From: an uncultured Candidatus Saccharibacteria bacterium
Lineage (GTDB): Bacteria; Patescibacteriota; Saccharimonadia; Saccharimonadales; 2-12-FULL-41-12
Length of the DNA: 24,000 nt
Assembly: GCA_964540445.1 (NCBI GenBank)
Contig: CAZIMF010000006.1
Location: 1 to 24,000, forward strand
Direction: 5' to 3'
Shown piece by piece: positions 3,236 to 22,460 of the stretch (positions are counted from its first letter, which is position 1; each line of letters starts with the position of its first letter). The translations under genes and the position numbers were made by a program. Below the pieces are notes generated by a model. That model was not told the DNA's origin. It saw nothing but the letters and a program-made list of their open reading frames with translations, and ran no database searches.

Positions 3236-4015
3236 TTAGACATAGACAGCAGTAGTTATAGCTTCAAAAAGTTTGTTTGGATTTTGAATACTCCAGACTG
3301 CTATGCCAGCTGCCTGCTGACCAAATGGCTTCATAGACTTTTTATTTGTAATAGCAACGTTTCCTGTTCGCGCCGTCCATATGGCGGAGCCATGCAGTAT
3401 AGTCAAGGAGATAGGATAGGTTGCAGTAAGTTCGTATAGAATTGCTGCAAGAACTGGTATGCCACTGTCTGAAGTTATCGGTGTTTTTAGCTCCAGCGAA
3501 ATACCAAACTTTTGAAATTCATCAAAAGTTACTACCAGTACGGTATTCTCTCTTTGGAATAAATCTTTTGCTGGTAACGTAATGCTTGCAAGAGCTGCGC
3601 TAGCAATAATTAAAACCCCATTAAAATCAGCAATAAATTGTTCTAGCATTAGATTTGTTTCGCTATTTTTGCCTAAATCGCCGGCCAACAATACGCCGTC
3701 TGCCCATTGGCTGGCATCAAGCAGTTCGGCGAGCGCACTCTTCGCAAAGCTGCCGCTGGCGTTACTGGGTGCATATTCGATGTTCGGCAGCATTTTAGTA
3801 AGCTTACGTGTACTCTCGGGCATAAGTACGCGCACTGTTCCGGCTCCAGCCTGCTCGGCAGCTGCAAAGCTTTCCGCAACATGAATAAACTCCTGCGCCT
3901 GACCTCCAATAATAAGAAGTTTCCCCGCGCTTTGCTTTGTTTCAGGTTTACTCCAGAGCATACTAGGAAACAGCGGCGCCTCTGCTTCCTGTGATTGCCA
4001 AAATGTATCGATCAT
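3236..4015 (-). CDS. YjeF C-terminal / carbohydrate-kinase-like protein (NAD(P)HX dehydratase family), apparently degenerate
   Basis: 259 aa. The N-terminal GKLLIIGGQAQEFIHVAESFAAAEQAGAGTVRVLMPES resembles the YjeF_C pattern (vlviGGs..y.GA..la..aAlr.GaG.v). The C-terminal GGxGD nucleotide-binding motif is not recognisable (PFGQQAAGIAV instead). There is a 4-nt ATGA overlap with pip. Confidence 0.5.
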   Translation of the reverse strand: MIDTFWQSQEAEAPLFPSMLWSKPETKQSAGKLLIIGGQAQEFIHVAESFAAAEQAGAGTVRVLMPESTRKLTKMLPNIEYAPSNASGSFAKSALAELLDASQWADGVLLAGDLGKNSETNLMLEQFIADFNGVLIIASAALASITLPAKDLFQRENTVLVVTFDEFQKFGISLELKTPITSDSGIPVLAAILYELTATYPISLTILHGSAIWTARTGNVAITNKKSMKPFGQQAAGIAVWSIQNPNKLFEAITTAVYV

Positions 4016-4935
4016 AGGGTTGAAAGTACGGCTTTAGTGGCATCAAAGGTATTTCGTTCCGAACCAGAATGACCGGCAACAGTCATAATAAGCGAGCTGT
4101 TCGGTAATGATTGGTGTAACTTGTGGGCAATTAATGGCCGGCAGACCATATCGTATCTCCCCTGGATAATTGTTATAGGCATGGTAAGAGACGAAACATT
4201 GTCGAGTATGTAGTTTTGGGGCAGATAACAGTGCTTATTGTCAGTAAAATATGACAAGTTAACCTTGGCTGACTCAGCATCAAATTCCTCATACGGAACT
4301 TCAGTAAGTCGGGTGTCTAGCTTCATGAGGGCCATATCGATTGCGTACAATGCGTACGTTGACTTTTTATATGCTTCGCCACTAGCTGGATTGCTTATTT
4401 GCTCAAAGTGGTAAATATGCGGAGCCTCATGATGCTCGGGCGGTGTTCGCGCCAGTAATCGTTCCCATATCTCCGGGAAAAAATCTTTATTGCCTCCCCC
4501 ATAAAACCAATCTAGCTCCTCTTGATTGCCAAGGAATATCCCGCGGAGCACCATACTCTGAACGTGGTTGCCATACTTGATGCCATAACACAGCGCTAAG
4601 GTTGAACCCCATGAGCCTCCGGTTATGACCCATGAATCAATGGCGAGCGTATTTCTAATTAGCTCTAAATCCTCAACTAAGTCTTGAGTTGTATTATTTT
4701 CAAGCGAAGCATGTGGCGTACTTTTACCGCTACCCCGTTGGTCAAGAAATATAACTCGGTGTTTTTTAGGATCAAATGGTTCCTTATGCCCGTCATCGCA
4801 GCCGACCCCGGGCCCACCATGCAGAAATATTATTGGTGTTCCAGAAGGATTCCCCCACTCCTGTACATATAAGCTGTGCAGCCCGTCTGCTGTTTTTATC
4901 ATGCGTTCATTGATGGTATAGCTATCAGGATTCAT
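4012..4935 (-). CDS. pip: Proline iminopeptidase (alpha/beta hydrolase)
   Basis: HGGPG oxyanion motif, DQRGSGKS, nucleophile elbow GGSWGSTLAL. 307 aa, a typical length. Confidence 0.88.
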   Translation of the reverse strand: MNPDSYTINERMIKTADGLHSLYVQEWGNPSGTPIIFLHGGPGVGCDDGHKEPFDPKKHRVIFLDQRGSGKSTPHASLENNTTQDLVEDLELIRNTLAIDSWVITGGSWGSTLALCYGIKYGNHVQSMVLRGIFLGNQEELDWFYGGGNKDFFPEIWERLLARTPPEHHEAPHIYHFEQISNPASGEAYKKSTYALYAIDMALMKLDTRLTEVPYEEFDAESAKVNLSYFTDNKHCYLPQNYILDNVSSLTMPITIIQGRYDMVCRPLIAHKLHQSLPNSSLIMTVAGHSGSERNTFDATKAVLSTL

Positions 4936-4963: not shown

Positions 4964-5761
4964 TCATATTACAAGCTCTATGCTCACCGGACAGTGATCG
5001 GAGCCCATGACGGCGCTATGAATCTGGGCAGACTTAATGTGCTCCTTGAGCTGCTTGGAAACAAGGAAGTAATCGATACGCCAGCCGACATTTCGTTCGC
5101 TGGCTTTGGCCCAGTGGGTCCACCAACTGTAGTGACCGTTGCCTTGCGTGAACATTCGAAAGGTGTCGACAAATCCGGCGTCTAGAAAATTTTGAAATCC
5201 GGCACGCTCTTCGTCTGTAAAGCCGTGCTTGCCAATATTTGGCCCGGGATTAGCTAAATCATCTTCTGTATGAGCAACATTTAAATCACCACAAAAAATT
5301 ACTGGCTTTTTTTGCTCAAGCAGCTTGGCATAATCTAAAAATGCTTTATCCCATTGCTCGTGACGTAATTTTAACCGGCTCAGGTCACCTTTTGAGTTTG
5401 GCGTATAAACTGTCAGTACGTAAAAGGTATCAAATTCAGCTGCTAACACTCTACCTTCATGTAATGGGTCGCCGTACGTATCGGCCATGGCCGTATAGTT
5501 ATTGGCAATCACCTCGGGGAATCCATAGAGCACCTCTATTGGTTTCGTTTTGGTAAAAATTGCCGTACCTGAGTAACCTTTTTTAACTGCAGAATTCCAG
5601 TATTCATGGTAGCCGGGTATATCTACTTCAGACTGTTCTTGCTGCGCCTTAGTCTCTTGTAGACATAAAATATCGGGATCGTGCTCTTCAATAAACTTCT
5701 GAAACATTCCTTTGTTCCAAACGGCTCGGATGCCATTTACATTCCACGAGTATATTTTCAT
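4964..5761 (-). CDS. xth: Exodeoxyribonuclease III (AP endonuclease)
   Basis: MKIYSWNVNGIRA, LCLQETK, GDLNVAH, and a C-terminal SDHCPV motif. 265 aa. Confidence 0.92.
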   Translation of the reverse strand: MKIYSWNVNGIRAVWNKGMFQKFIEEHDPDILCLQETKAQQEQSEVDIPGYHEYWNSAVKKGYSGTAIFTKTKPIEVLYGFPEVIANNYTAMADTYGDPLHEGRVLAAEFDTFYVLTVYTPNSKGDLSRLKLRHEQWDKAFLDYAKLLEQKKPVIFCGDLNVAHTEDDLANPGPNIGKHGFTDEERAGFQNFLDAGFVDTFRMFTQGNGHYSWWTHWAKASERNVGWRIDYFLVSKQLKEHIKSAQIHSAVMGSDHCPVSIELVI

Positions 5762-5768
5762 AGATAAC

Positions 5769-5774
5769 AGTATA
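5769..5774 (-). promoter_or_regulatory. -10 box placed for a leaderless xth mRNA
   Basis: On the - strand: TATACT, 7 nt (GTTATCT), ATG (5761). No SD. Confidence 0.45.
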
Positions 5775-5818
5775 GCGTCTAGAAAATGAAAAACCTATGT
5801 CTGCTTTTAGGTCACTTC

Positions 5819-5827
5819 TGTTATAAT
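5819..5827 (+). promoter_or_regulatory. Extended -10 box upstream of pyrH (leaderless or very short leader)
   Basis: TGtTATAAT, 9 nt (TTGCAACCA), ATG at 5837. No SD. Confidence 0.5.
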
Positions 5828-5836
5828 TTGCAACCA

Positions 5837-6544
5837 ATGGCATATAAACGAGTACTCTTAAAACTGTCCGGCGAAATGTTGTCTGGCCAATTTGAACATG
5901 GTATTGATCCGGAGTTGGCAAAGTGGTTTGCACGAGAGGTTCAAAAGGCTTCAGAAGCAGGCACCGAAATTGTAATTATGGTTGGTGGTGGTAACTTTGT
6001 ACGTGGCGCCCAAGTAGCTGGCCATGGTATCCGCCGCGTTACGGGAGATCATATGGGCATGTTAGGTACTATGATAAACGCACTGGCCTTAACAGATATC
6101 TTTGAAGATCAGGGTGTTAAAACGCGCTGCTTAACTAATATTTTTGCACAGCAGGTCGCTGAGCCATTTGTCTATCGCTTAGCAAATAAGCATCTTGAAA
6201 AAGGCCGCGTTGTAATCGCCGGCGGCGGCTTAGGTCGCCCCTATCTCACTACCGATACCGCAGCCGTTTCATTAGCGCTTGAAATGGACTGTGAAATTGT
6301 TCTAAAAGCTACCAAAGTAAATGGTGTGTATGATAAAGATCCACATCAACACGACGACGCAGTTCGCTATGAATCATTACAGTTCCAGCAAGCAGTTGAA
6401 AACGCTGAAATTAAAGTTATGGATAAAGCTGCAATGGGGCTTGCCATGGAACAAGGTATGCAGTTAGTTATCTTTAACCCCATGGACGAGGGTGCCATTG
6501 CCTCAGTTATCAGCGGCGATCCAGTCGGCACTAAAATTAGCTAG
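5837..6544 (+). CDS. pyrH: UMP kinase
   Basis: Starts MAYKRVLLKLSGE (canonical PyrH N-terminus), then VGGGNFVRG. The track start at 5786 adds 17 non-homologous residues. Confidence 0.92.
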   Translation: MAYKRVLLKLSGEMLSGQFEHGIDPELAKWFAREVQKASEAGTEIVIMVGGGNFVRGAQVAGHGIRRVTGDHMGMLGTMINALALTDIFEDQGVKTRCLTNIFAQQVAEPFVYRLANKHLEKGRVVIAGGGLGRPYLTTDTAAVSLALEMDCEIVLKATKVNGVYDKDPHQHDDAVRYESLQFQQAVENAEIKVMDKAAMGLAMEQGMQLVIFNPMDEGAIASVISGDPVGTKIS

Positions 6545-6838: not shown

Positions 6839-7720
6839 ATGCCAATTATTGAGTTAAAAGACGTCAGTAAACTGTACGGCTTCGGCGATGCAACTACCAT
6901 TGCGCTCGAGGAAGTTAGTTTAAGCGTGGAAAAAGGTGAATTTGTGGCAATTATGGGCCCCAGCGGATCGGGCAAATCTACTCTTATGAATGTTATTGGT
7001 ATGCTAGACCGCCCAACGCACGGGGTATATCGCCTTGATGGCCGATCGGTGGAACGCTTACGGGCAAACGGCCGTGCCAAGGCACGCCGCGATAAAATTG
7101 GCTTTGTGTTTCAATCATCCAGTCTTATCGCTCGCTTAACAACGCTCGATAATGTTGCCCTGCCCCTCGCCTACAAAGGTAAGCGGGCTGGCAAGCGCAA
7201 TAAGCTTGCCCATGCCATGCTAGAGCGCGTCGGATTGAGTAATCGTGCATATTTCCTTCCTCATCAGTTGAGCGGGGGCCAGGTACAGCGAGCCACTATT
7301 GCCCGGGCACTTATTAATGAACCAAAAATCTTAATTGCCGATGAGCCGACTGGCAATCTCGATAGTGCTTCTTCTCGCTTAGTTATGGAATTGCTTAACG
7401 AAGTGCATCGTATGGGTAACACAATTCTAATGGTCACACATAATCCTGAACTAACTCGCTATGCCACTCGAGTGCTGTATATGTATGACGGTACAATCGT
7501 GCGCGACGAAAAAACTAAATTTGGCGAAGTAGCTAAAAGTGCCGAGCAAACGGTTGTTTTTGTCCCCAAAGATATTGACGAAGAAGAGCTAGCAGGCGTT
7601 TCGGCAATTATCAGTCACATTCCAAAACACGGCGATGATAAGCCGCGGATACGTAAAAGGACAGTCAAGAAAAAAGCCCGTCTACCAGTTAAACGTGCGC
7701 CTCGGAGAGCTAAGAAATGA
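6839..7720 (+). CDS. ABC transporter ATP-binding protein, MacB/LolD/FtsE-like, with a basic C-terminal tail
   Basis: Walker A GPSGSGKST, signature LSGGQ, Walker B ILIADEPT, H-loop VTHN. About 65 extra C-terminal residues end in KPRIRKRTVKKKARLPVKRAPRRAKK. Confidence 0.9.
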   Translation: MPIIELKDVSKLYGFGDATTIALEEVSLSVEKGEFVAIMGPSGSGKSTLMNVIGMLDRPTHGVYRLDGRSVERLRANGRAKARRDKIGFVFQSSSLIARLTTLDNVALPLAYKGKRAGKRNKLAHAMLERVGLSNRAYFLPHQLSGGQVQRATIARALINEPKILIADEPTGNLDSASSRLVMELLNEVHRMGNTILMVTHNPELTRYATRVLYMYDGTIVRDEKTKFGEVAKSAEQTVVFVPKDIDEEELAGVSAIISHIPKHGDDKPRIRKRTVKKKARLPVKRAPRRAKK

Positions 7721-8946
7721 TTTTTTCAGAATATATTCGTGTTGCCCTTGCCTCCATTCGGGCTGCTCGGTTTCGTAGTTTTCTTACTATGTTTGGAATT
7801 ATTATTGGTGTTGTAAGTGTTATTACCACGGTTAGTCTGGGCGAAGGCGTCAAGCATCAGATTTCAGGGCAAACCAATATTGTGGGCAATGATTTAGTCA
7901 CTGTTCGACCGGGTTCACTGGTTAAGCGTGATGGTGACGGTAAAATAACAGGCGTTAATATTCTGTCATTTTTATCATCAAGTAAAATTAGCGACAAAGA
8001 CTTGCAATCAATCCGTCAAAATCCTTCGGTTGAAACTGCTGTGCCGCTGAGTATTATTGGCGGCAGTGCTAGCGAGAACGACACTCATTTTAATGACGGC
8101 TTCATCGTTGCTACTTCCGAAAACCTTCCTGAAGTTCTTAACCATCAAATTGAATTTGGTAATTTTTTCAAAGAGAGTGACAAGACTCGTAAGGTTGCCG
8201 TAATTGGCGTGGGTATTGCCGAAAATTTGTTTAAAGAAAATGTTCCGATAGGTAAGACTTTTCAGGTTAGAGGCGAAGATTATATTGTTGGCGGAGTGTT
8301 TGAGCGCTTTCCTGCAAATCCCCTCAGTCCCGAGGCAGACTTTAACAACGGGGTATTTATCCCCTACGAGACAGGTAAGCAGCTACTTGGCACGGATCTA
8401 AATATTTACCAAGTGCTGGTTCGGCCAAAAGACAAGAATCAAATAGATCCAGCGAGCGCTGCCATTACCGCTAGCCTAAAAGAGAATCATCAAGGCCAAG
8501 AAGATTTTACTGTTTTACGCCAAGATGAGATGGCAACCCTTGCCGATAGCGTACTGGGGCTTATCACAAAAACAGTGACAATCATGGCTGCTATTTCCCT
8601 CTTTGTTGGGGGCATTGGCATTATGAACGTTATGCTAGTATCGGTTACCGAAAGAACTCGTGAAATCGGCATCAGAAAAGCGGTTGGTGCTACCAATCGG
8701 CAAATTCGGGCTCAGTTCTTGGTCGAAGCTATGGTTATTTCGGTGTGGGGTGCATTAGTCGGTGTATTCTTGGCAGGTTTTGCAAATTTGATGTTCAGGG
8801 TACTTACTGATATCGAACCAATTATTACCTGGCAATCGGTTTGTATAACAGCGGGTGTTGCTATCGCGATCGGTATCTTGTTCGGCATGATTCCGGCCAT
8901 ACAAGCGTCACGGAAAGATCCAATTGTGGCATTGCGTTCACAGTAG
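7717..8946 (+). CDS. ABC transporter permease, MacB-like (MacB periplasmic domain plus FtsX domain)
   Basis: 409 aa. One N-terminal TM, a large extracytoplasmic domain, and a C-terminal FtsX-type three-TM bundle containing ERTREIGIRKAVGA. 4-nt overlap with the ATPase gene. Confidence 0.88.
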   Translation: MIFSEYIRVALASIRAARFRSFLTMFGIIIGVVSVITTVSLGEGVKHQISGQTNIVGNDLVTVRPGSLVKRDGDGKITGVNILSFLSSSKISDKDLQSIRQNPSVETAVPLSIIGGSASENDTHFNDGFIVATSENLPEVLNHQIEFGNFFKESDKTRKVAVIGVGIAENLFKENVPIGKTFQVRGEDYIVGGVFERFPANPLSPEADFNNGVFIPYETGKQLLGTDLNIYQVLVRPKDKNQIDPASAAITASLKENHQGQEDFTVLRQDEMATLADSVLGLITKTVTIMAAISLFVGGIGIMNVMLVSVTERTREIGIRKAVGATNRQIRAQFLVEAMVISVWGALVGVFLAGFANLMFRVLTDIEPIITWQSVCITAGVAIAIGILFGMIPAIQASRKDPIVALRSQ

Positions 8947-8951
8947 CTTCT

Positions 8952-9386
8952 ATGAAAATTCTTTGCGTCGCTGTGGGTAAAAAACATGACCAAAACCTAG
9001 CAGCTGCTATTGCCGAGTATGAAAAACGGCTGACTAATTTTAGTTGGCAACTTATCCCGTCTTCAGATAAAACTCAAGAGTCGCAGTCTATTATAAATCA
9101 ACTTAAAGAAGACGACATAGTAATTCTACTTGATGAGCGCGGTAAAATGTGGGGCAATGAACGCTTAGCGTATGCTCTTGAAACACTCCAGAATCGTTCA
9201 ACGAAACGGCTGGTATTTATTATTGGTGGTGCATATGGCGTTGACGCAAATGTGCAACAACGTAGTAGTTACATTTTGGCTTTGTCTCCTCTAGTCTTCC
9301 CGCACCAAATAGTGAGACTATTATTGGTTGAGCAACTGTACCGAACATTCAGTATTCTTGCTGACGGCAAATATCACCACCAGTAG
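8952..9386 (+). CDS. rlmH: 23S rRNA (pseudouridine1915-N3)-methyltransferase RlmH (SPOUT family)
   Basis: Starts MKILCVAVGKK. The C-terminus LSPLVFPHQIVRLLLVEQLYRTFSILADGKYHH matches the RlmH signature. The track start at 8841 overlaps the permease gene. Confidence 0.85.
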   Translation: MKILCVAVGKKHDQNLAAAIAEYEKRLTNFSWQLIPSSDKTQESQSIINQLKEDDIVILLDERGKMWGNERLAYALETLQNRSTKRLVFIIGGAYGVDANVQQRSSYILALSPLVFPHQIVRLLLVEQLYRTFSILADGKYHHQ

Positions 9387-9387
9387 A

Positions 9388-12243
9388 TTATTGAGCTTTG
9401 CGGTGCTGTTGTCTGTAGACAGCAATAGCTGCGCCGGAGGCGAATGGTGCAATTATACCAAGTGCTGGGTGTAGTTTACTTAGTCCAACAACAAGCGCAA
9501 TAGTTAGTACAATCCAGAGAATACCAGTGCGTCGATTGATGTGGCTGCGCAAATACTCGGCTCCCAGATAGTAGTATGGGAAAACAGTAACGACTAAGAA
9601 TGTGCTTGATAGAAGCCCACAAATTAAAACGATTGCCAAACCTTCCCAGAATGGACTGGTAACAGCCAGTGGAATAAGTGACACCACGGCGGTGAGACTA
9701 GTCGCAATCAACGGTCGGAAACGCTCGGCCAAAGCTTCGTGAGCTGCATCAATTGCGTTTTTACCAGCCCTGCGTGACTGATTAGCATAGTCGGTTAATA
9801 GAATCGTATTCTTGATGCTTAGGCCGATTAGAGCAAAGAAGCCAAGCATGGAGAAGAAACTGAAGGGATTGTCGCTTAGGTAGAGACCAAGTGTTATGCC
9901 GAACAGGCTGAACGGAATAGCCATGAAGATGAGCAGTGGCTGCAGCATGCTCTTAAACTGGAAGGCTAGTAACACATAAATTGCAACCAGTAAGAATGGG
10001 AATGCAATTGCCAGGGTTTTAAAGCTATCTTGGTTTTCAGCTTCTTGTCCAAAGTCAAAACTGAGTGCATTTTGATCGACACCGTATGAGGCAACCCGGT
10101 CTTTTGGAAATTCTTTTTCAACGGCCGCCTGCGCAATGGTCACCAATGCACTTGTGTCATCATCGACAAATTGTGCTCCAGCCTGGATGTATTGTTTGTT
10201 ATCGTCACGGGTATATATGTTTGGATCAGGGGGAGTAACGCTGTCAATTTTAGCGACAGATCCATCGGTTCGTTTAAGCTCAGCAGTTTTTAGGAATCCG
10301 GCAATGTCGGTCGCTAAGCGGGTTGACCCTTCCCTGTTTTGACTTGAGTCAACACGCGCCACGAAAGCGGATGTTGGGGGTCCGTTACCAATCTGACCGG
10401 CTTTAACGGTAGCCTCTGTGTAGCCTTTGAGTTTTTCGTTCAATTGATCGACAATTTGGGGTGCTTTATCTTGGCGGTCTTTATAGTCGATAATATCAAT
10501 GCTTAGCATTGCGCTCTGAACATTTCCGGTGCCGTAATAATCGGCTTTAACCAAGTTAGGACCAAGACTGTCGGAAACAATTTTGTCGACATCATCAGTT
10601 ACCTGTTCGGCTTTATTAATGTCGGTGCCTGGTGCAAATGTTATAGCTACGCTTAGTTGATTGCTGTCTTTATCTGTCGGGAAAATACTAAATTTTACCG
10701 AGCGGAAGATATACCCCCCGGCTCCGATGAAGCCTAAGCCTATAAAGACAGCAGTTATACCGACAATGAAGAGTTTCTTTTTTGAATGTTGGGCCCACAG
10801 CATTGGGGCAGACAAAAAGCGGGCAATGCGTGCTTCGATAGCTGCTGCCGGTTCATGAACATTTTCTTTACCAAGTTGACCCTTGCCCAACAGTAAGAAG
10901 CGTGAGAAAAATGGTATGAACACTAATGCAACAAATAAACTTGATATAAGCGCGGCGATGATAGTCACCGGTATGGCTCGGATAAAGCTACCAAGTATAC
11001 CGCCAACAAACAACAATGGAGCAAAACTTAAAGCGGCAGTAGAAGTTGCCGCAATCATGGCCTGGCCTACTTTGCCAGTTGCAACCTTAACGACTTCTTT
11101 GGGATCTTTGAGTTTACGGCGTTGAGCATCAATTGCTTCAACCATAATAATGGTGTCATCAACAATTAGAGAAAGACCAAGCACAAGACCAAACAGAGTG
11201 ATGGTATTAAGACTGTAACCAAATATATAAAGCAGCCCATTAACGATAGCAATAACAGTAACCATTGAAATAACGGTGATTATTGATGCTCGAATAGCAA
11301 TAACGATTGAACCAATCACCAGGACAGCCAGTAAGCCTTCAAATAAGGTCGATTGAAGCTCATTAACCTGCATGTTGATGGATGGAGCATTGCTGGCACT
11401 AATTTCGGCGTGGTAGCCACTAAATTGGCTCTGATTGGCTATTGTGGCAACAGCTGACCGAACTTGCTTATCCAGCTCAAGTTCATCAGCCCCATCTTTG
11501 GCATTAACCCCAATAACAATCGAATTGTGAAAGTTATTGTTATTATTTTCGTCTCGTTTGCCGAAGCGGTCGAAACTCTTCTGGGTTGCCTCAGATAAAC
11601 CGGTGGCAGGGTTTATTGCAGTTTCATAGGGATTAATAATGGACACATCTTCTACTAGTGATAAGTTCTGAGACTTAATGAAATTAGCTGCATCCATCGC
11701 CTTTGCGGCTAAATCAGTAGTACCTATTGCATTATCGCTTGCGTAAAACGAGATAACTAAGCTATCACCGCGATCAGTAAAACCAAATTTAAATGCCTCA
11801 AGTTTGCCAGTGGCTTGCTCGGGAAGAATATGTTGTTGATCCATTTCTTTTTGAAGTTCGGCACTACGAGTCTCGGCGTTAACATTGTCGTTATAGGCAA
11901 CGGTAGCAACAAAGAAATTATTAAAACTTTGTGCTTGAACGGTCTTAACCCCTTCTTGCTTCAGGAGAAACTCGCTTAATGGTTTTGCTGCGTCACTGTC
12001 GACTTTTGCCGGATCGTTAACCAGGTATGTTCCTTTTGTGATTGCGAATGGAGTCTCAATTGCCGGAAAGCCTTCTCGTTTTAGCAGTGTTGTAAAGCTC
12101 AATGCGCCAAATAAGGCAATAACAAGCCAGATGATGGCAGTTTTACGAGGTCGTAAAAAGAAAAACAAACTTAGGCGTTGGAAACGGCTCAGTTTAGGTG
12201 ACTTGTGGATCGGTGACGTTTTTGATTTACGCTTAAGCGACAT
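9388..12243 (-). CDS. RND-family efflux transporter permease (AcrB/AcrD/AcrF type)
   Basis: 951 aa. Twelve-TM, two-large-loop architecture with typical RND TM4/TM10 regions. SD ACGGAG upstream. No membrane-fusion or outer-membrane partner gene is adjacent. Confidence 0.85.
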   Translation of the reverse strand: MSLKRKSKTSPIHKSPKLSRFQRLSLFFFLRPRKTAIIWLVIALFGALSFTTLLKREGFPAIETPFAITKGTYLVNDPAKVDSDAAKPLSEFLLKQEGVKTVQAQSFNNFFVATVAYNDNVNAETRSAELQKEMDQQHILPEQATGKLEAFKFGFTDRGDSLVISFYASDNAIGTTDLAAKAMDAANFIKSQNLSLVEDVSIINPYETAINPATGLSEATQKSFDRFGKRDENNNNNFHNSIVIGVNAKDGADELELDKQVRSAVATIANQSQFSGYHAEISASNAPSINMQVNELQSTLFEGLLAVLVIGSIVIAIRASIITVISMVTVIAIVNGLLYIFGYSLNTITLFGLVLGLSLIVDDTIIMVEAIDAQRRKLKDPKEVVKVATGKVGQAMIAATSTAALSFAPLLFVGGILGSFIRAIPVTIIAALISSLFVALVFIPFFSRFLLLGKGQLGKENVHEPAAAIEARIARFLSAPMLWAQHSKKKLFIVGITAVFIGLGFIGAGGYIFRSVKFSIFPTDKDSNQLSVAITFAPGTDINKAEQVTDDVDKIVSDSLGPNLVKADYYGTGNVQSAMLSIDIIDYKDRQDKAPQIVDQLNEKLKGYTEATVKAGQIGNGPPTSAFVARVDSSQNREGSTRLATDIAGFLKTAELKRTDGSVAKIDSVTPPDPNIYTRDDNKQYIQAGAQFVDDDTSALVTIAQAAVEKEFPKDRVASYGVDQNALSFDFGQEAENQDSFKTLAIAFPFLLVAIYVLLAFQFKSMLQPLLIFMAIPFSLFGITLGLYLSDNPFSFFSMLGFFALIGLSIKNTILLTDYANQSRRAGKNAIDAAHEALAERFRPLIATSLTAVVSLIPLAVTSPFWEGLAIVLICGLLSSTFLVVTVFPYYYLGAEYLRSHINRRTGILWIVLTIALVVGLSKLHPALGIIAPFASGAAIAVYRQQHRKAQ

Positions 12244-17225: not shown

Positions 17226-17420
17226 TTAGTCATCTAATGTATCTTTATTAGTTATCTCTGTTATTTCGTCGTTGTCCTCTGTATTTCGGCTAATCCAGGT
17301 GCTATCCCTGCTCTGCATATAGAGTGAGTGACGATACATAGACTTATCTACGTTGTTTGCTTTGGCGCTGTTACGTTTGCCTCCAAGTTGTATCCGAAAA
17401 TATTTAAAATTCTTAACCAT
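17226..17420 (-). CDS. Hypothetical small protein (64 aa) with a basic N-terminus and an acidic C-terminus
   Basis: ORF only. Weak SD AAAGG 6 nt upstream. No family recognised. A + strand terminator immediately upstream makes the coding status uncertain. Confidence 0.3.
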   Translation of the reverse strand: MVKNFKYFRIQLGGKRNSAKANNVDKSMYRHSLYMQSRDSTWISRNTEDNDEITEITNKDTLDD

Positions 17421-18020: not shown

Positions 18021-19055
18021 CTAGTTTTGAACGTTGAATGAGGTGTTTGAATTCGCACCATTTGCTGCACTGCCCGTACCTGCACCACCAGCAGATGTAT
18101 TGTTAGCAGTAGTCGCAGATCCGCTGCTCGCAGTTTGGTTATTGATGTTGGTTGCGCTTAGGTTGTTCGTGTTAGTTACGTTTACATTACGAGTATTAGT
18201 ATTTGAAATCACATTGTTAGAGTTGGGTCCGGTTGTGTTGATTGAGGAGTTAGAGCCTCCACCAGCACCTGCACCGCCGCCACCGGCTCCACCAGCACCG
18301 CCAAATCCGCCGCTGTTGTTAAGCACGCCATTAACGCCGTTGCTGGAATTATTGCCCGCGTTGCCGCTGCCAGCGCCTCCTCCGAAGGTATTATTGCCAC
18401 TAAAGGCTCCTCCACTACCGGCTAGTTGGCCATTCACATTCAGTAATCCAATATTGTTAAGGTTTGCTTGATTAGCAGAAGAGCTGTTAGCGTTGGTAAT
18501 GGCATTGTTTGAACCAGGACCAGTATTGCCAATTGTGCTATTAGAGCCTCCGGCACCACCTAAGCAGGCTGCAGCTGCACTCCCTGCACCACCATTATTT
18601 ACATTGAAGCTCATATTGTTTGAGCTGTTATTGAAAGCGTTGCCGGTTGTAGCTCCGCCACCACCTGCTGCTACTGAGCCCCAAGCACCTTGTAGACCAG
18701 CTATGTAAGCATTAACAGCTGCTTGCCACTGAGCATATGTGTAGCCTTGGGCTTGCCATACTGCAGGGTCGTACGCTCCCCAGCCACCTCCAATTCCGCC
18801 GGCATTTGTATTATTTGCCACAGTGGCATTACCACTTATGGCTGATTGGTTATTCATATTTGTTGCATTAATTAAGTTAGTATTGCCCACCATACAATTT
18901 GAAGTGTCTGTATTTGTTATTACGTTGTTTGAACCCGGGCCTGTCGTTGCGATAGTTGCAACCTGAGCTGATGCCACGCTTGCGAACCCAAAAAAAGCAG
19001 TCAATAATGCTGCAATTGCCAGATTAAAGCCGCGTGAAATATGCGCTTTTGTCAT
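18021..19055 (-). CDS. Secreted Asn/Gly/Thr/Ala-rich repeat protein with three 'TGPGSNNxI(T/S)NT' units
   Basis: 344 aa. Signal peptide ..AALLTAFFGFASVASA-Q. Strong SD GGAGGAG. Three repeat units of roughly 50-70 aa (about residues 35-86, 176-240 and 272-344) are separated by poly-Gly/Ala linkers and a Trp/Tyr/Gln-rich segment (GGWGAYDPAVWQAQGYTYAQWQAAVNAYIAGLQGAWG). No sortase or lipobox signal. Confidence 0.85.
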   Translation of the reverse strand: MTKAHISRGFNLAIAALLTAFFGFASVASAQVATIATTGPGSNNVITNTDTSNCMVGNTNLINATNMNNQSAISGNATVANNTNAGGIGGGWGAYDPAVWQAQGYTYAQWQAAVNAYIAGLQGAWGSVAAGGGGATTGNAFNNSSNNMSFNVNNGGAGSAAAACLGGAGGSNSTIGNTGPGSNNAITNANSSSANQANLNNIGLLNVNGQLAGSGGAFSGNNTFGGGAGSGNAGNNSSNGVNGVLNNSGGFGGAGGAGGGGAGAGGGSNSSINTTGPNSNNVISNTNTRNVNVTNTNNLSATNINNQTASSGSATTANNTSAGGAGTGSAANGANSNTSFNVQN

Positions 19056-19176
19056 AAGTATTCTCCTCCACGTTATGCTTAAGTAATTACAATTTCAATA
19101 GTGGTACACTACCCTGTTATAAATCTGTGAATTATTTAACAATTTGTAAATTCAAACAAGAATTTGGTGCAATATA

Positions 19177-19845
19177 CTATGATTGAGCTGGACGGCGTTT
19201 ATTGGAACCCAGTTGATTGATGTAAGAAGCCGTTGAGTGAACGGCCAACAAAACAAAAAATATAAAGGATATATATGACAACGCAAATACACCACCCTTT
19301 ACTAGATGGGTTGCGCCGTCTCCACTTAACGTTCCATGGGATAAGTAGCTGACAATAGTGAACCAAGCAAGAAATGTTGCAAGCTTACCATACTGCGAAG
19401 GATGAATTACTAGTTTGCGGCTGCGTCCTATTAGTGAAGCAATGGCGTTAAGCAGGCTTTGCGCGATAATAGCGGCAACAAACAATGCCGGCAACAAATT
19501 AAAGGCAATAATGACGATGAGTCCAAAAAAGACAGTTGTTTTGTCGAGCGTTGTATCAATTATTTCGCCTAACGGGCTCTTGGTACCGGTATGATGCGCA
19601 ATATAACCATCAAAGACATCGGCCAAGCGCCCAATAACTATAAACAGTAACCCTGATAGTGTTACGCCATCACCGAATTTCAAAAAACCAATTATTACCA
19701 TGGCTGCACCGAGTAAACTAAGTATATTTGCAGGAGTTACTATGCCGTTCGTACGGGCAGCAACTTTTTGCCAATAGTTCCATTTTTCGGGCTTTATGAA
19801 TTGCCAGTCAGCCTTTTTGCCAGCAGTGTGCATATTAATAGCCAT
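19177..19845 (-). CDS. CDP-alcohol phosphatidyltransferase family protein (PgsA/PssA-type II-like)
   Basis: Signature D-x2-DG-x2-AR..G-x3-D-x3-D is present as DVFDGYIAHHTGTKSPLGEIIDTTLDK. Multiple TM segments. Start placed at the ATG at 19845 (MAINMHTAGKK), which removes the overlap with the divergent gene. The track start at 19953 is the alternative. Confidence 0.8.
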   Translation of the reverse strand: MAINMHTAGKKADWQFIKPEKWNYWQKVAARTNGIVTPANILSLLGAAMVIIGFLKFGDGVTLSGLLFIVIGRLADVFDGYIAHHTGTKSPLGEIIDTTLDKTTVFFGLIVIIAFNLLPALFVAAIIAQSLLNAIASLIGRSRKLVIHPSQYGKLATFLAWFTIVSYLSHGTLSGDGATHLVKGGVFALSYISFIFFVLLAVHSTASYINQLGSNKRRPAQS

Positions 19846-19851
19846 ATATAA

Positions 19852-19860
19852 ACGATAGCA
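19852..19860 (-). promoter_or_regulatory. Extended -10-like box placed for a leaderless phosphatidyltransferase mRNA
   Basis: On the - strand: TGcTATCGT, 6 nt (TTATAT), ATG (19845). Confidence 0.35.
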
Positions 19861-19871
19861 TGGATTAGGAA

Positions 19872-19880
19872 TGTTACAAT
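19872..19880 (+). promoter_or_regulatory. Extended -10 box placed for a leaderless CarS-like mRNA
   Basis: TGtTACAAT, 8 nt (TACAGGTG), ATG at 19889. Confidence 0.45.
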
Positions 19881-19888
19881 TACAGGTG

Positions 19889-20443
19889 ATGAACAGTATT
19901 CTATTTGCCCTATGGTTTTTTATTCCGGCTGGCGTTGCTAATATGGCGCCCATTATTGCAGCCCATCTCCCCTACTTGTCAAAATTCAATGCACCATTGG
20001 ATTACGGAATGAAGTATAGAGGTAAGCCTATTTTCGGAAAAAATAAAACATGGCGCGGACTGGTTAGCGGGATTGTGGCTGCTTCACTTGTGGTATATAT
20101 ACAACAACTTATTTGGCAAACTGGCGATATACATTTTTTAACTTCAGATTCAATGAATTATATCTATTATTCGCCACTCCTATTAGGCGCCCTGTTCGGC
20201 GCAGGAGCCTTACTGGGTGATGCGACCGAAAGTTTTTTTAAGCGGCAACGTGGCACACTGCCTGGTAAAAGCTGGTTCCCATTTGATCAGATTGATTATA
20301 TTATCGGCGGTTGTCTTGCTTTAGCGTTTGTGGCACGGTTAAGCATCCTGGAGTACCTATTGATCCTCTGGATTTGGTTTGTGATGCATCTATTTTTTAG
20401 TTACCTTGGCTATTTGCTGAAACTTAAATCTCAACCAATTTGA
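19889..20443 (+). CDS. CarS-like CDP-lipid synthase (CDP-archaeol synthase family, DUF46-type CTP-transferase)
   Basis: Family landmarks: IPAGVANMAP (archaeal PAYVANG.P), GKNKTWRG (GdgKTWRG), GALLGDATESFFKRQRG (GDl.gSFiKRR.G), FPFDQIDY (DQlDf). About 185 aa and polytopic. The alternative start at 19871 adds 6 aa. Confidence 0.7.
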   Translation: MNSILFALWFFIPAGVANMAPIIAAHLPYLSKFNAPLDYGMKYRGKPIFGKNKTWRGLVSGIVAASLVVYIQQLIWQTGDIHFLTSDSMNYIYYSPLLLGALFGAGALLGDATESFFKRQRGTLPGKSWFPFDQIDYIIGGCLALAFVARLSILEYLLILWIWFVMHLFFSYLGYLLKLKSQPI

Positions 20444-20446
20444 TTG

Positions 20447-21493
20447 TTATAGGGCTGTTATCCAGTTTCTGGCTGCTGCAATAAAGTCTTTTGAAGTGCT
20501 ATGGAGGGCCATTTCGGCTGTTCCCAAATCGACACCCATTTTTACAAAATTATGACTGCCAATAATAGCTTCTTTTTCACTGATTAAGATTTTTGCATGA
20601 AGATAGTCGCGGTCCATGTTTAGTTGGTTTTCAAAAACATTTTCAGGCAAGCGTTTTCGATTATAGGCAACGGTCCGCTTTTGAACGCCGCGAATTAAAC
20701 TATTATGTTGGTCGGGATGGTTATACGCTAAGTGCACGTTAACTCCGCGGTAGTGAGCCCGCGCTAATTCGGCAGGCGTACGGTTATTAGGAAAGTACTG
20801 ACAGGTCATATAAACACGATTCGTGGCGCTACTTATTAAGTCGAGTGCACGGTCGTAAATAAGTGACTGACGCTTGATACCTGCATCTATTAATAGCTCA
20901 GTTTGATCGTCGACCTTAAAGCTAATATCTTGTTTGAGGAGAGCTCTGCGGACACTTTTATGTTTGATAACATCATGAGTAAATTTGGTAAGGTAATCGG
21001 CTAAGCGCTTATTCTCGGTTCGTACCATCACATCTAGTAGCTCGGGATCGCTTAGGTTGCAGCCACCAATAAATATTTCGTTGTTAATTACGGCAAATTT
21101 TATATGTGCCCGTCCGCCAAACGGATTTTTAAGTGGTCGCGGTGGTTTATTAATAACAACGCAGCGAACACCACTGGCACGCAACGAATTGACTGCCTCA
21201 ACAACTGGCTTAAATTCGCCGTAACCCATTTTTGGATCCTTTTTTCTGAAAAAGAGCGGTCCCGGAACAGCCCCAACCTTGAGCATAAAAGAGTATGCAT
21301 CAACCAAGAATGTTACATCAGCTCCCTGTTTTGCGGCAGTACGCAGGCCAGCGAGTATCTCCTGAATTTTTTCTTTATCAGGCTGAAATTCCATTGTTGC
21401 TAAAATGATAGAATCACCTGTCTTAGCTGCGTTAAAGCTAGTTATGAGATGGTTGAAATACTGTTGCCTATTAACAAGTTTATAATTAATCAT
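20447..21493 (-). CDS. Phospholipase D superfamily protein with two HKD motifs (cardiolipin synthase / PssA-like)
   Basis: HKD-like motif 1 HIKFAVINNEIFIGGCN and motif 2 HAKILISEKEAIIGSHN. Start placed at ATG 21493 (MINYKLV), preceded by TACAAT. The track start at 21649 overlaps the upstream gene by 107 nt. Confidence 0.75.
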   Translation of the reverse strand: MINYKLVNRQQYFNHLITSFNAAKTGDSIILATMEFQPDKEKIQEILAGLRTAAKQGADVTFLVDAYSFMLKVGAVPGPLFFRKKDPKMGYGEFKPVVEAVNSLRASGVRCVVINKPPRPLKNPFGGRAHIKFAVINNEIFIGGCNLSDPELLDVMVRTENKRLADYLTKFTHDVIKHKSVRRALLKQDISFKVDDQTELLIDAGIKRQSLIYDRALDLISSATNRVYMTCQYFPNNRTPAELARAHYRGVNVHLAYNHPDQHNSLIRGVQKRTVAYNRKRLPENVFENQLNMDRDYLHAKILISEKEAIIGSHNFVKMGVDLGTAEMALHSTSKDFIAAARNWITAL

Positions 21494-21500
21494 TAGTTGT

Positions 21501-21506
21501 ATTGTA
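21501..21506 (-). promoter_or_regulatory. -10 box placed for a leaderless PLD-family mRNA
   Basis: On the - strand: TACAAT, 7 nt (ACAACTA), ATG (21493). No SD. Confidence 0.45.
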
Positions 21507-21542
21507 TTTCCTGTACAAAATCCTGTAAATATATTATTCGAC

Positions 21543-22460
21543 TCATTTGAATGTAGTGACCGTTTGTTCAGTAACTTGTTTGAATAATTTTTGCCCCATA
21601 GCATAGTCATACGATGGAGTGTACGACTTAGAGTAAATAACAATAACAAATGGTGCGCTACCGTTGTCGATTACTCCTACCTCGTGAACTCTGTCAGCAA
21701 GGTAGCCAGCTTTGTGATAGAGCACTGAACCTTGAGGCACCCCTGGCGGTATAAAGCGCTCCTCAGATGTATTTTGCATCCAGGATAGTAATAATTTCGT
21801 GTGGTCGTCGTTTATAAGTTTACGGTTATACAAAAGCGCCATAAGCTGAGCCATATCATTCGATGTAATGGTGTTCTGTTCGGGGTTGTAGCTCGCAATG
21901 CCGTGCTCTTTGGCATAGGCGGCCAAATCATTGCGGCCAAGATAGTTATTGAGCGCTAACCATGCATCATTATCGCTATCCTTAACTGCCAATCGTAACT
22001 GGTCTTCTGCTGTTTTCCCGCTGACTTGCGTAGCAAGACTAGTCTGGCCTAACTCAACTTGGTTTAAATAATATAAGGCGGTAAGTATTTTGGTAGTGCT
22101 GGCAGCGATGAATGGATAGCTATCACCCGTTTGTATAAGATTTCCGGAGTTTAGGTCAACCACCGAAACACTTGTGTCATAGGGGTACCTTTTGATTATA
22201 AGATTGAGGGATGCCTGCAACCCCGTAGTGTCTACCTGCCGCTTAGGAGGATCGGGTTTGCTGCTTGATGCAGATACTATGCTCGCCGAAGTATCATGAC
22301 CGTTCTGATTGAAAAAAATATTCTTAGTAATTAGCGTAATCGTGAGTATGCATATACAGATACAGCCTGCTGAAAGGAGTAATGTAGTTCTTTTCTTGCG
22401 ACGATTTACCGATAAGCGACGATCGAATTGGTATGAATGATTTCGTGAAAAAGTTTGCAT
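21543..22460 (-). CDS. Membrane-anchored class-A beta-lactamase-like serine hydrolase
   Basis: S-x-x-K (ASTTK), SDN (DSDND) and a KTG-like KAG (HKAGY) in the correct order and spacing. N-terminal TM LLLSAGCICICILTITLI. Start at ATG 22460, or TTG 22514 as in the ORF track. Confidence 0.7.
   Translation of the reverse strand: MQTFSRNHSYQFDRRLSVNRRKKRTTLLLSAGCICICILTITLITKNIFFNQNGHDTSASIVSASSSKPDPPKRQVDTTGLQASLNLIIKRYPYDTSVSVVDLNSGNLIQTGDSYPFIAASTTKILTALYYLNQVELGQTSLATQVSGKTAEDQLRLAVKDSDNDAWLALNNYLGRNDLAAYAKEHGIASYNPEQNTITSNDMAQLMALLYNRKLINDDHTKLLLSWMQNTSEERFIPPGVPQGSVLYHKAGYLADRVHEVGVIDNGSAPFVIVIYSKSYTPSYDYAMGQKLFKQVTEQTVTTFK

What the first reader, a model, noticed from the sequence alone, without database searches (positions are those of the whole stretch)
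19871..20443. Archaeal-type CDP-archaeol synthase (CarS)-like gene in a bacterial context
The 185-190 aa polytopic protein carries the CarS/DUF46 landmarks: PAGVANMAP, GKNKTWRG, GDATESFFKRQRG and FDQIDY. It does not carry those of the bacterial CdsA (CTP_transf_1) family.

CarS activates the lipid phosphate with CTP in archaeal ether-lipid synthesis. Bacterial homologs have been noted in comparative surveys, mainly in uncultivated lineages, but their substrate is, as far as I know, not experimentally established. It could be phosphatidate from scavenged host lipid, or an isoprenoid glycerol phosphate.

Here the gene sits head-to-head with the enzyme that would consume its CDP-activated product.
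Basis: partly seen in the sequence, partly recalled or inferred. Interest (0 to 1): 0.6.

Follow-up and report, generated by a model that had tools for sequence, protein, structure and literature searches.

The report
CarS-type lipid activator in Saccharibacteria
A tiny, lipid-dependent Saccharibacteria bacterium that has no normal bacterial CdsA carries a small membrane enzyme of the archaeal CarS family, which most likely re-activates scavenged fatty-acyl lipid with CTP so that neighbouring enzymes can attach new head groups.

Summary
The ORF at 19871-20443 (+) encodes a 190-aa protein, or 184 aa from M7. It matches Pfam CarS-like end to end (82.5 bits) and CdsA only locally (32.7 bits). Its model (pLDDT 94.3, five helices) matches A. 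pernix CarS (5GUF) best.

The genome is a ~1.0 Mb Saccharimonadia MAG, 92.7% complete. This gene is its only CTP_transf_1-superfamily member. No CdsA, PlsC, PlsY, ketoacyl synthase, GGGPS or G1PDH-type gene was found, and its one UbiA is heme o synthase. No true CdsA was found in 30 genomes of its family.

In the phylum sample, CarS-like occurs in 66 of 351 genomes and true CdsA in 8.

The gene sits head-to-head with the genome's only CDP-alcohol phosphatidyltransferase and tail-to-tail with a two-HKD PLD-like gene. In relatives a DAGK_cat lipid kinase joins the cassette.

Most likely it makes CDP-diacylglycerol from salvaged phosphatidate. The substrate is inferred, not shown.

This scan already found the related CDPOH-PHP-CarS operon about eight times on other DNA. 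Here a minority layout pairs the gene with a different, Arg-less transferase subfamily. I rate it a new variant of a known kind, of moderate interest.

The parts
19871..20443 (+). CarS-like (PF01864) five-helix membrane cytidylyltransferase, 190 aa. An alternative start at 19889 (M7) gives the 184 aa typical of homologues.
   Evidence: Pfam and NCBIfam scores. It is the only PF01864/PF01148 match in the genome. AF2 model pLDDT 94.3 with 5 helices. The best PDB fold match is 5GUF, E 5.6e-6, TM 0.77 by target. 19 columns are invariant across 79 homologues, including D117, S121, K124, R125, D139, Q140 and D142.
19177..19845 (-). CDP-alcohol phosphatidyltransferase, 'type 2' subfamily, 222 aa, transcribed divergently from the CarS-like gene. 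It is the only PF01066 gene in the genome.
   Evidence: PF01066 67.5 bits and a single genome match. The best NCBIfam hit is pgsA, 49.7 bits, below its cut-off. The best PDB hit is S. aureus PgsA 7DRJ, E 8e-5. Its motif reads DxxDGxxA[H], lacking the family's Arg in all 7 subfamily members aligned, while the four Asp are kept. It is 39-44% identical to the divergent neighbour of CarS in relatives.
19846..19870 (.). 25-bp divergent spacer between the two start codons (43 bp if CarS starts at 19889). It contains TATAAA.
   Evidence: Sequence read. The consensus promoter scan found nothing here, and the whole region scored no better than shuffles: 8 sites against 7.3 expected.
20447..21493 (-). 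PLD-superfamily protein with two HKD-type motifs (HIKFAVIN..GGCN and HAKILISE..GSHN), 348 aa from M53. It is convergent with the CarS-like gene, with 3 bp between the stop codons. It could be a cardiolipin/phosphatidyl-transfer enzyme or a phospholipase D.
   Evidence: PLDc_2 in two stretches, 72.1 bits. There are weak hits to ClsB and bacterial cardiolipin synthase, 37.6 and 31.6 bits, far below cut-offs. Orthologues of 347-357 aa occupy the same position in relatives. A promoter-like TTTACA-17-TACAAT ends 7 nt before 21493.

Best explanation
The gene encodes a five-helix integral-membrane CTP:lipid-phosphate cytidylyltransferase of the CarS family. In this fatty-acid- and phospholipid-auxotrophic Saccharimonadia bacterium it does the job of the missing CdsA.

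Proposed pathway:
1. Phosphatidate is made from scavenged host diacyl lipid. A DAGK_cat lipid kinase acting on diacylglycerol, and/or the adjacent PLD-type enzyme, would supply it.
2. The phosphate of phosphatidate attacks the alpha-phosphate of CTP, giving CDP-diacylglycerol and PPi.
3. The divergently transcribed CDP-alcohol phosphatidyltransferase uses the CDP-lipid to attach a phosphorylated alcohol. It is PgsA-like and lacks the motif Arg.
4. The PLD-like enzyme may then interconvert head groups or make cardiolipin.

Shown here: family, fold, a conserved catalytic core, absence of CdsA and of de novo and archaeal lipid genes among those searched, and conserved gene linkage.

Inferred: the diacyl substrate, the identity of the head group, and the role of the PLD-like protein.
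For: Family and fold:
- PF01864 matches full length at 82.5 bits, against a local 32.7-bit PF01148 match.
- 5GUF is the only PDB sequence hit, E 8e-8, with PA..AN..P, PxDxG, KT..G, GD...SF.KR and DQxD conserved.
- The AF2 model has pLDDT 94.3 and five helices. Foldseek ranks 5GUF first (TM 0.77 by target) and TmCdsA 4Q2E/4Q2G next (TMq 0.44-0.49).
- 19 residues are invariant over 79 homologues.

It stands in for CdsA:
- It is the only CTP_transf_1-superfamily gene in the genome.
- No true CdsA was found in 30 genomes of the same family, several of them 98-99% complete.
- In 201 Saccharimonadia genomes about 23 have CarS-like, about 20 have true CdsA, and only one (G189) has both.
- In 351 Patescibacteria genomes 66 match CarS-like and 8 have true CdsA. 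None of the strong CarS-like genomes has a true CdsA.

Coupling to a CDP-lipid consumer:
- A CDP-OH transferase lies next to CarS in about 68 of 80 related loci.
- It is also there in 7 of 8 loci examined in the window's own clade.
- All 23 CarS-like genomes in the class sample have PF01066.

Acyl rather than isoprenoid lipid:
- No PcrB/GGGPS and no Fe-ADH_2/G1PDH.
- The only UbiA is heme o synthase, 299 bits against a cut-off of 285.
- A CMAS (cyclopropane-fatty-acyl-phospholipid synthase family) gene lies at 1452-2567, 306 bits.
- A DAGK_cat lipid kinase is co-operonic with the type-2 transferase in 4 clade relatives.
- The window genome's own kinase, on contig C2, is 62-63% identical to the kinase lying directly after the CarS operon in two congeners.

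No de novo route to phosphatidate:
- No PlsC, PlsY or ketoacyl synthase.

A published metabolic reconstruction of a soil Saccharibacterium proposes the same salvage logic (PMC6031116).
Against: - Characterised archaeal CarS (A. fulgidus) strongly prefers DGGGP over phosphatidate and does not complement an E. coli cdsA mutant (review PMC9385802). Activity on phosphatidate therefore needs a change of specificity, and nothing here demonstrates one.
- The protein scores below the CarS equivalog cut-off (115.7 against 148), so its exact activity is open.
- The genome is 92.7% complete in 110 contigs, so absences are provisional.
- About 70 of 201 class genomes have a CDP-OH transferase but neither CarS-like nor CdsA. 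These transferases therefore do not strictly need either enzyme.
- One congener, 98% complete in 2 contigs, has no CarS-like gene, so the function is dispensable in close relatives.
- In this genome the kinase is unlinked to the cassette.
- The partner transferase lacks the Arg of the family motif, so its reaction is uncertain.
Confidence: 0.62

Rival explanations
1. It is a cytidylyltransferase, but its physiological substrate is another lipid phosphate or a broad range of them. Candidates are lysophosphatidate, alkyl/alkenyl (ether) glycerol phosphates taken from the host, or a polyprenyl phosphate. On this reading it is not a CdsA equivalent.
For: - ApCarS has wide, open lipid grooves rather than tunnels (PMC9385802).
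- The protein falls below the CarS equivalog cut-off.
- The partner transferase belongs to an atypical Arg-less subfamily.
- The organism can only use whatever lipid its host supplies.
Against: - The linked DAGK_cat kinase and PLD-type enzyme both point to diacylglycerol/phosphatidate chemistry.
- The CMAS gene indicates acyl phospholipids.
- The near-exclusive distribution against CdsA fits functional replacement.
Confidence: 0.15
2. It is a CTP-dependent lipid kinase rather than a cytidylyltransferase. Some members of the same superfamily work this way: yeast Dgk1, dolichol kinase and phytol kinase (from my own knowledge). It would phosphorylate diacylglycerol or a polyprenol.
For: - The superfamily is known to include CTP-dependent kinases (established knowledge, not tested here).
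- The genome has no DgkA-type kinase, PF01219.
- The protein fails the CarS equivalog cut-off.
Against: - The full-length best match and the fold are CarS, and the residues shared with ApCarS are conserved.
- A separate ATP-type DAGK_cat kinase is repeatedly linked to it, which would make a second kinase redundant.
- The conserved neighbour is a CDP-alcohol phosphatidyltransferase, which needs a CDP-activated donor.
Confidence: 0.07
3. It is a genuine CDP-archaeol synthase acting on isoprenoid ether lipid (DGGGP or archaetidate). The bacterium would make or take up archaeal-type lipid.
For: - The best family and fold match is archaeal CarS.
- Source databases auto-annotate homologues as CDP-2,3-bis-(O-geranylgeranyl)-sn-glycerol synthase.
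- In relatives the operon's transferase scores best against archaetidylinositol-phosphate synthase (93.8 bits, below cut-off).
- An ESM Atlas neighbour cluster is mostly DPANN archaea.
Against: - No GGGPS and no G1PDH-type gene.
- The only UbiA is heme o synthase.
- A CMAS acyl-chain methyltransferase is present.
- The family is spread over 66 of 351 Patescibacteria genomes.
- Known Saccharibacteria hosts are bacteria (established knowledge).
Confidence: 0.05

Closest known systems
Archaeal CDP-archaeol synthase CarS (A. pernix ApCarS, PDB 5GUF; A. fulgidus AF1740; EC 2.7.7.67)
   Same: It is in the same Pfam family (PF01864), with the same size and five-helix fold. It shares PxDxG, KT..G, GD...SFxKR and DQxD. 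The presumed chemistry is the same: CTP plus lipid phosphate gives CDP-lipid plus PPi.
   Different: The host is bacterial and has no G1PDH, GGGPS or DGGGPS. The score is below the equivalog cut-off. Identity to ApCarS is 24%. The bacterial clade has its own invariant residues (R62, W135-F136-P137) where ApCarS differs. The likely substrate is diacyl phosphatidate, which AfCarS handles poorly (PMC9385802).
Bacterial CDP-diacylglycerol synthase CdsA (T. maritima 4Q2E/4Q2G; EC 2.7.7.41)
   Same: It has the proposed cellular role, supplying CDP-DAG to CDP-alcohol phosphatidyltransferases. It belongs to the same superfamily and shares the C-terminal catalytic core (PF01148 positions 169-229). It is the second-best structural match.
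   Different: It is about 100 residues shorter and has five helices, where PF01148 is a 264-position profile. It lacks the N-terminal part of the CdsA profile. The CdsA equivalog scores 19.8 bits against a cut-off of 385. TM-scores are only 0.33-0.49.
CDPOH-PHP-CarS operon of Patescibacteria
   Same: It is the same CarS-like orthologue family (41-60% identity). The CarS gene is linked to a CDP-alcohol phosphatidyltransferase in the same way, and the DAGK_cat kinase recurs as a neighbour.
   Different: Here there is no PHP phosphatase or PIG-L gene anywhere in the genome. The partner transferase is divergent and belongs to a different, Arg-less, PgsA-like subfamily. BLAST between the two transferase types gives E 0.024, and the operon type looks like an AIP/PIP synthase. 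A PLD-like gene is convergent. Loci L096/L097 carry both transferase types around CarS and look like an intermediate layout.
Lipid-salvage reconstruction for the soil Saccharibacterium 'T. rhizospherense' (Starr et al. 2018, PMC6031116)
   Same: The logic is the same. Scavenged phospholipid or phosphatidate, a phospholipase D, a 'putative phosphatidate cytidylyltransferase', then PGP, cardiolipin and PI branches, with no fatty-acid synthesis.
   Different: That paper does not say the cytidylyltransferase is of the CarS type. It gives no distribution, no structure and no linkage analysis. Whether its gene is an orthologue was not checked here.

Membership tests
CarS / CDP-archaeol synthase family (Pfam PF01864) | Full-length match above the Pfam gathering score | tested here: met
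   82.5 bits against a cut-off of 22, covering profile positions 2-172 of 175. The whole-genome scan gives the same result.
CarS / CDP-archaeol synthase family (Pfam PF01864) | Five-transmembrane-helix fold of ApCarS (5GUF) | tested here: met
   AF2 model with pLDDT 94.3 and helices 2-32, 61-83, 102-126, 138-151 and 159-182. Foldseek top hit is 5GUF, E 5.6e-6, TM 0.65 by query and 0.77 by target.
CarS / CDP-archaeol synthase family (Pfam PF01864) | Conserved polar-cavity motifs shared with ApCarS (PxDxG, KT..G, GD...SFxKR, DQxD) | tested here: met
   HMMER alignment to 5guf_A. The same residues are invariant in 79 bacterial homologues. The role of each residue was not checked against the primary structure paper, which is not held.
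CDP-archaeol synthase equivalog (NCBIfam NF003114, EC 2.7.7.67) | Score at or above the curated equivalog cut-off | tested here: not met
   115.7 bits against a cut-off of 148.
CDP-archaeol synthase equivalog (NCBIfam NF003114, EC 2.7.7.67) | Pathway context that supplies DGGGP (G1PDH, GGGPS, DGGGPS) | tested here: not met
   No PF01884 match and no PF13685 match. The only PF01040 gene is heme o synthase. The genome is 92.7% complete.
CDP-archaeol synthase equivalog (NCBIfam NF003114, EC 2.7.7.67) | Catalysis: CTP plus lipid phosphate gives CDP-lipid plus PPi, with preference for DGGGP | not testable with these tools
   This needs an enzyme assay.
CdsA / phosphatidate cytidylyltransferase (PF01148, NF008635) | Full-length match and the roughly 260-285-aa architecture | tested here: not met
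   Only residues 58-128 match profile positions 169-229 of 264, at 32.7 bits. NF008635 scores 19.8 bits against a cut-off of 385. The protein has 184-190 aa and five helices.
CdsA / phosphatidate cytidylyltransferase (PF01148, NF008635) | Function: it supplies CDP-diacylglycerol to CDP-alcohol phosphatidyltransferases | not testable with these tools
   Only inferred, from three observations: it is the sole superfamily member in the genome, its distribution is nearly exclusive with CdsA, and it is linked to PF01066 genes.
CDP-alcohol phosphatidyltransferase (PF01066), for the head-to-head neighbour | Signature D(x)2DG(x)2AR(x)8G(x)3D(x)3D | tested here: inconclusive
   PF01066 scores 67.5 bits. 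All four Asp and both Gly are present. The Arg is replaced by H here and by D, Q, A or E in six orthologues. The consequence is unknown.

The most novel reading that the evidence does not exclude
CarS-family enzymes, not CdsA, are the main CDP-lipid synthases of Patescibacteria, and they work on ordinary diacyl phosphatidate. If so, the CarS/CdsA split does not track the archaeal/bacterial lipid divide.

On this reading the enzyme is the hub of a modular salvage system: a DAG kinase and/or PLD, then CarS, then interchangeable head-group transferases. The Arg-less type-2 transferase paired with it here would make a head group or use an acceptor not yet described. The family may have been exchanged with DPANN archaea.
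Probability: 0.35. Interest if true: 0.7.

Novelty: new variant of a known kind. Interest (0 to 1): 0.5.

Why it matters
Patescibacteria/CPR cannot make fatty acids or phospholipids, and how they build and tailor their membranes is an open question.

If this small CarS-type enzyme accepts diacyl phosphatidate, two things follow:
- It identifies the entry point of head-group remodelling in the fifth of sampled Patescibacteria genomes that carry it.
- It shows that the CarS family is not diagnostic of archaeal ether lipids. That matters for 'lipid divide' arguments and for automatic annotation, which now labels these genes as geranylgeranyl-glycerol enzymes.

The claim is directly testable, by cdsA complementation and by an in vitro CTP-transferase assay.

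Tried and rejected
- tblastn of the window's neighbours against 80 related loci found the window-type transferase in only 2. At first this suggested the pairing was not conserved. Clustering the ORFs showed that a different PF01066 subfamily occupies the position, so that reading was dropped.
- No archaeal-versus-bacterial tree of CarS could be made. No claim about origin or transfer is made. The midpoint-rooted tree of bacterial sequences is used only to define the window's clade.
- The primary ApCarS structure paper (Ren et al. 2017) is not held. Roles of individual residues are therefore not asserted.
- The promoter/terminator scan of 19000-21700 did no better than shuffles, so no promoter is claimed in the 25-bp spacer.
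- phmmer against the PDB found nothing for the PLD-like protein or the lipid kinase.
- Literature searches combining CarS or CDP-archaeol synthase with Patescibacteria, CPR or Saccharibacteria found no paper describing this family in these bacteria. The outgroup-free-rooting study of lipid genes does not mention CarS.
- DGGGPS was considered for the genome's UbiA gene and rejected: it is heme o synthase.
- The G630 PlsC-type acyltransferase lies 5 kb from that genome's CarS operon and is separated from it by unrelated small ORFs, so it is not counted as linked.

Full report
**The thing itself**

The window holds an ORF at 19871-20443 (+) of 190 aa. Pfam places it in CarS-like PF01864 along its whole length (E 4.8e-23, 82.5 bits, profile positions 2-172 of 175). 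CTP_transf_1 PF01148, the CdsA family, matches only residues 58-128 at 32.7 bits.

NCBIfam agrees in direction. The CarS equivalog NF003114 gives 115.7 bits, below its cut-off of 148. The CdsA equivalog gives 19.8 bits against a cut-off of 385. The only PDB chain found by sequence is A. pernix CarS 5GUF (E 8e-8), with PA..AN..P, PxDxG, KT..G, GD...SFxKR and DQxD aligned.

An AlphaFold2 model built on 79 homologues has pLDDT 94.3 and five long helices. Foldseek ranks 5GUF first (E 5.6e-6, TM 0.77 by target) and T. maritima CdsA next (TMq 0.44-0.49). Nineteen columns are invariant over the 79 sequences, including D117, S121, K124, R125, D139, Q140, D142 and H173.

Most of the 2600 database homologues are 184 aa, so M7 (19889) may be the real start.

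**The organism**

The window is contig C6 of a 1.01 Mb assembly in 110 contigs, 92.7% complete and 4.3% contaminated. The 200 relatives of the protein found in species-representative genomes are almost all Saccharimonadia/Saccharibacteria MAGs. A few are Levyi-, Roizman- and Paceibacteria. Neighbouring genes are syntenic with those MAGs, so the contig is not a contaminant.

**Lipid genes in the genome**

The CarS-like gene is the only match to PF01148 or PF01864. Searches of the whole assembly gave these results:

| Searched for | Result |
|---|---|
| PlsC (PF01553) | none |
| PlsY (PF02660) | none |
| Ketoacyl synthase (PF00109) | none |
| DgkA-type kinase (PF01219) | none |
| PcrB/GGGPS (PF01884) | none |
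| Fe-ADH_2/G1PDH type (PF13685) | none |
| Inositol-1-phosphate synthase (PF01658) | none |
| UbiA (PF01040) | one gene: heme o synthase, 299 bits against a cut-off of 285 |
| CDP-OH_P_transf (PF01066) | one gene, the head-to-head neighbour |
| DAGK_cat lipid kinase (PF00781) | one gene, on contig C2, with no lipid genes around it |
| Polyprenyl synthase (PF00348) | one gene, split over two contig ends |

The same window carries a CMAS-family gene (cyclopropane-fatty-acyl-phospholipid synthase family, 306 bits) at 1452-2567. That family modifies acyl chains already in phospholipids, which argues for a fatty-acyl membrane.

The assembly is incomplete, so I checked relatives. None of 30 genomes of the same family, several 98-99% complete, has a true CdsA. 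Thirteen show the short CarS-type cross-match.

**Distribution**

In 201 Saccharimonadia genomes about 23 have a strong CarS-like gene and about 20 a true CdsA. Only one (G189) has both, and about 159 have neither.

In 351 Patescibacteria genomes 66 match PF01864 and only 8 have a true CdsA. None of the strong CarS-like genomes has a true CdsA. In this phylum the CarS type is therefore the commoner of the two by several fold.

This near-exclusive pattern is what functional replacement predicts. Related genomes are not independent samples, so no statistic is attached.

**Neighbourhood here**

The PF01066 gene is transcribed divergently. Orthologues of 214-225 aa place its start at 19845, which leaves a 25-bp spacer.

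Downstream, a two-HKD PLD-superfamily gene (20447-21493, 348 aa from M53) converges on the CarS gene, with 3 bp between the stops. Then come a Beta-lactamase2 gene and a PAS histidine kinase.

**Neighbourhood in relatives**

In the 80 related loci the usual layout is different. A co-directional operon runs CDP-OH transferase, PHP-domain protein, CarS-like. PHP is present in 67 of 80 loci and a transferase in 68 of 80. The operon is often followed by convergent PIG-L and PGI genes.

That operon's transferase looks like an archaetidylinositol-phosphate or PIP synthase (93.8 and 85.5 bits, both below cut-off). This scan has reported that operon about eight times on other DNA. I found it here independently, before consulting those notes.

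**The window's own clade**

The window's CarS belongs to a well-supported clade (SH-aLRT 97; 41 sequences). Eight loci of this clade were examined:

| Feature at the CarS locus | Loci with it |
|---|---|
| Type-2 transferase divergent from CarS | 7 of 8 |
| PLD-like gene beside or near CarS | 6 of 8 |
| DAGK_cat lipid kinase overlapping the 3' end of the transferase gene | 4 of 8 |

The type-2 transferase is unrelated by BLAST to the operon type (E 0.024). Its best matches are PgsA. Throughout the subfamily it lacks the Arg of the DxxDGxxAR signature while keeping all four Asp. No PHP or PIG-L homologue of the operon type exists in this genome.

Two loci from another genus of the same family (L096, L097) have the type-2 transferase divergent from a type-1-transferase-CarS pair. 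This looks like an intermediate layout.

In two congeners with the operon layout, the gene directly after CarS is a kinase 62-63% identical to this genome's unlinked C2 kinase. Kinase homologues also flank CarS strongly in 6 of the 80 loci. CarS-like therefore behaves as a hub shared by two kinds of head-group transferase and repeatedly joined by a lipid kinase.

**Mechanism proposed**

Steps 2 and 3 rest on family chemistry. The diacyl nature of the substrate and the head group are inferences from context.

1. Scavenged host lipid is converted to phosphatidate, by the DAGK_cat kinase acting on diacylglycerol and/or by PLD-type cleavage.
2. The CarS-like enzyme makes the CDP-activated lipid from CTP.
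3. The type-2 transferase attaches a phosphorylated alcohol, possibly glycerol-3-phosphate.
4. The PLD-like enzyme may make cardiolipin or exchange head groups.

The same scheme was proposed from annotation for a soil Saccharibacterium, without recognising the CarS type (PMC6031116).

**Evidence against and caveats**

- A. fulgidus CarS prefers DGGGP and does not rescue an E. coli cdsA mutant (PMC9385802). Use of phosphatidate by the bacterial clade is a real, untested claim.
- About 70 class genomes have a PF01066 gene with neither CarS-like nor CdsA.
- One congener lacks CarS-like.
- The kinase is unlinked in this genome.
- The rivals, in order of weight, are a different or broader lipid-phosphate substrate, a CTP-dependent lipid kinase, and a genuine archaeal-type substrate.

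**Comparison and verdict**

The protein is a member of Pfam CarS-like by sequence, fold and motifs. It fails the CarS equivalog threshold and lacks the archaeal pathway context. It is not a CdsA by architecture, but it probably works like one.

No paper in the held library describes CarS-type enzymes in Patescibacteria. An ESM Atlas look-up lists neighbouring CarS-like clusters whose known members are mainly Saccharimonadota, Minisyncoccota, DPANN (Nanobdellota) and Bacillota. That is only a lead on origin, and no rooted tree could be built here.

I rate it a new variant of a known kind, of moderate interest. The local twist is the Arg-less type-2 transferase and the PLD partner in place of the PIP-synthase/PHP pair.

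Noticed in passing
window 1452-2567 (+): A full-length CMAS-family (cyclopropane-fatty-acyl-phospholipid / mycolic acid cyclopropane synthase) methyltransferase, 306 bits. It lies in a genome with no fatty-acid synthesis genes found, which implies modification of scavenged acyl chains.
   Followed up: partly
window 19177-19845 (-); A2: The type-2 CDP-alcohol phosphatidyltransferase subfamily replaces the signature Arg (DxxDGxxAR) with H, D, Q, A or E in all 7 members aligned. It also has a conserved N-terminal LNLH..ADWE..RNxWQ..TPAN extension. Its acceptor and donor are unknown.
   Followed up: partly
class sample: About 70 of 201 Saccharimonadia genomes carry a CDP-OH_P_transf gene (often 250-300 aa) but no CarS-like and no CdsA. 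Either a third kind of CDP-lipid synthase exists, or these transferases use CDP-alcohol donors.
   Followed up: no
window 18021-19055 (-): A 344-aa Gly/Asn/Ala-rich protein with a signal peptide and three copies of a TGPGSNN(V/A)I(T/S)N motif, with no Pfam match. It occupies the slot downstream of the transferase where relatives have the lipid kinase. Homologues lie near the cassette in L090 and L091 (35-48% identity).
   Followed up: partly
window 17226-17420 (-); L005:5375-5635: A small ORF of 64 aa (MVKNFKYFRIQ...YMQSRDS.W) between the CRP-family regulator and the cassette. It is conserved in L005 (86 aa), and 64-aa genes are called at the same place in L088 and the P0021 contig. It has no family.
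   Followed up: no
window 6839-12243: A MacB-type ABC pair (ABC_tran, then MacB_PCD/FtsX) and a 951-aa RND/MMPL-like transporter (ACR_tran 290 bits, plus an MMPL match), with an alpha/beta hydrolase at 4012-4935. These are possible lipid uptake or export and lipase functions in the same window.
   Followed up: no
window 21501-21529 (-): A promoter-like TTTACA-17-TACAAT (10 of 12) ends 7 nt before the M53 start of the PLD-like gene. This fits a leaderless transcript and the 348-aa gene length seen in relatives.
   Followed up: partly
genus sample: Within one GTDB genus the CarS locus takes three forms: the operon type with a convergent kinase (G630, G628; CarS 48-49% identical to the window's), the window type (G000, G627), and no CarS at all (G629). 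This suggests replacement or differential loss of two CarS lineages.
   Followed up: partly
L034, L040, L055, L071, L077, L081 (about 5090-6010 in most): In the loci with a divergent transferase (mostly Levyibacteriota), the ~300-aa gene directly upstream of CarS clustered with the PHP genes but also gives weak hits (24-28 bits) to my kinase HMM. Its domain make-up was not resolved.
   Followed up: no
G000 contigs C14:6-599, C23:13136-13669, C53:5968-6198: The heme o synthase gene and a trans-polyprenyl diphosphate synthase gene are both cut by contig ends. The latter is split across two contigs.
   Followed up: partly
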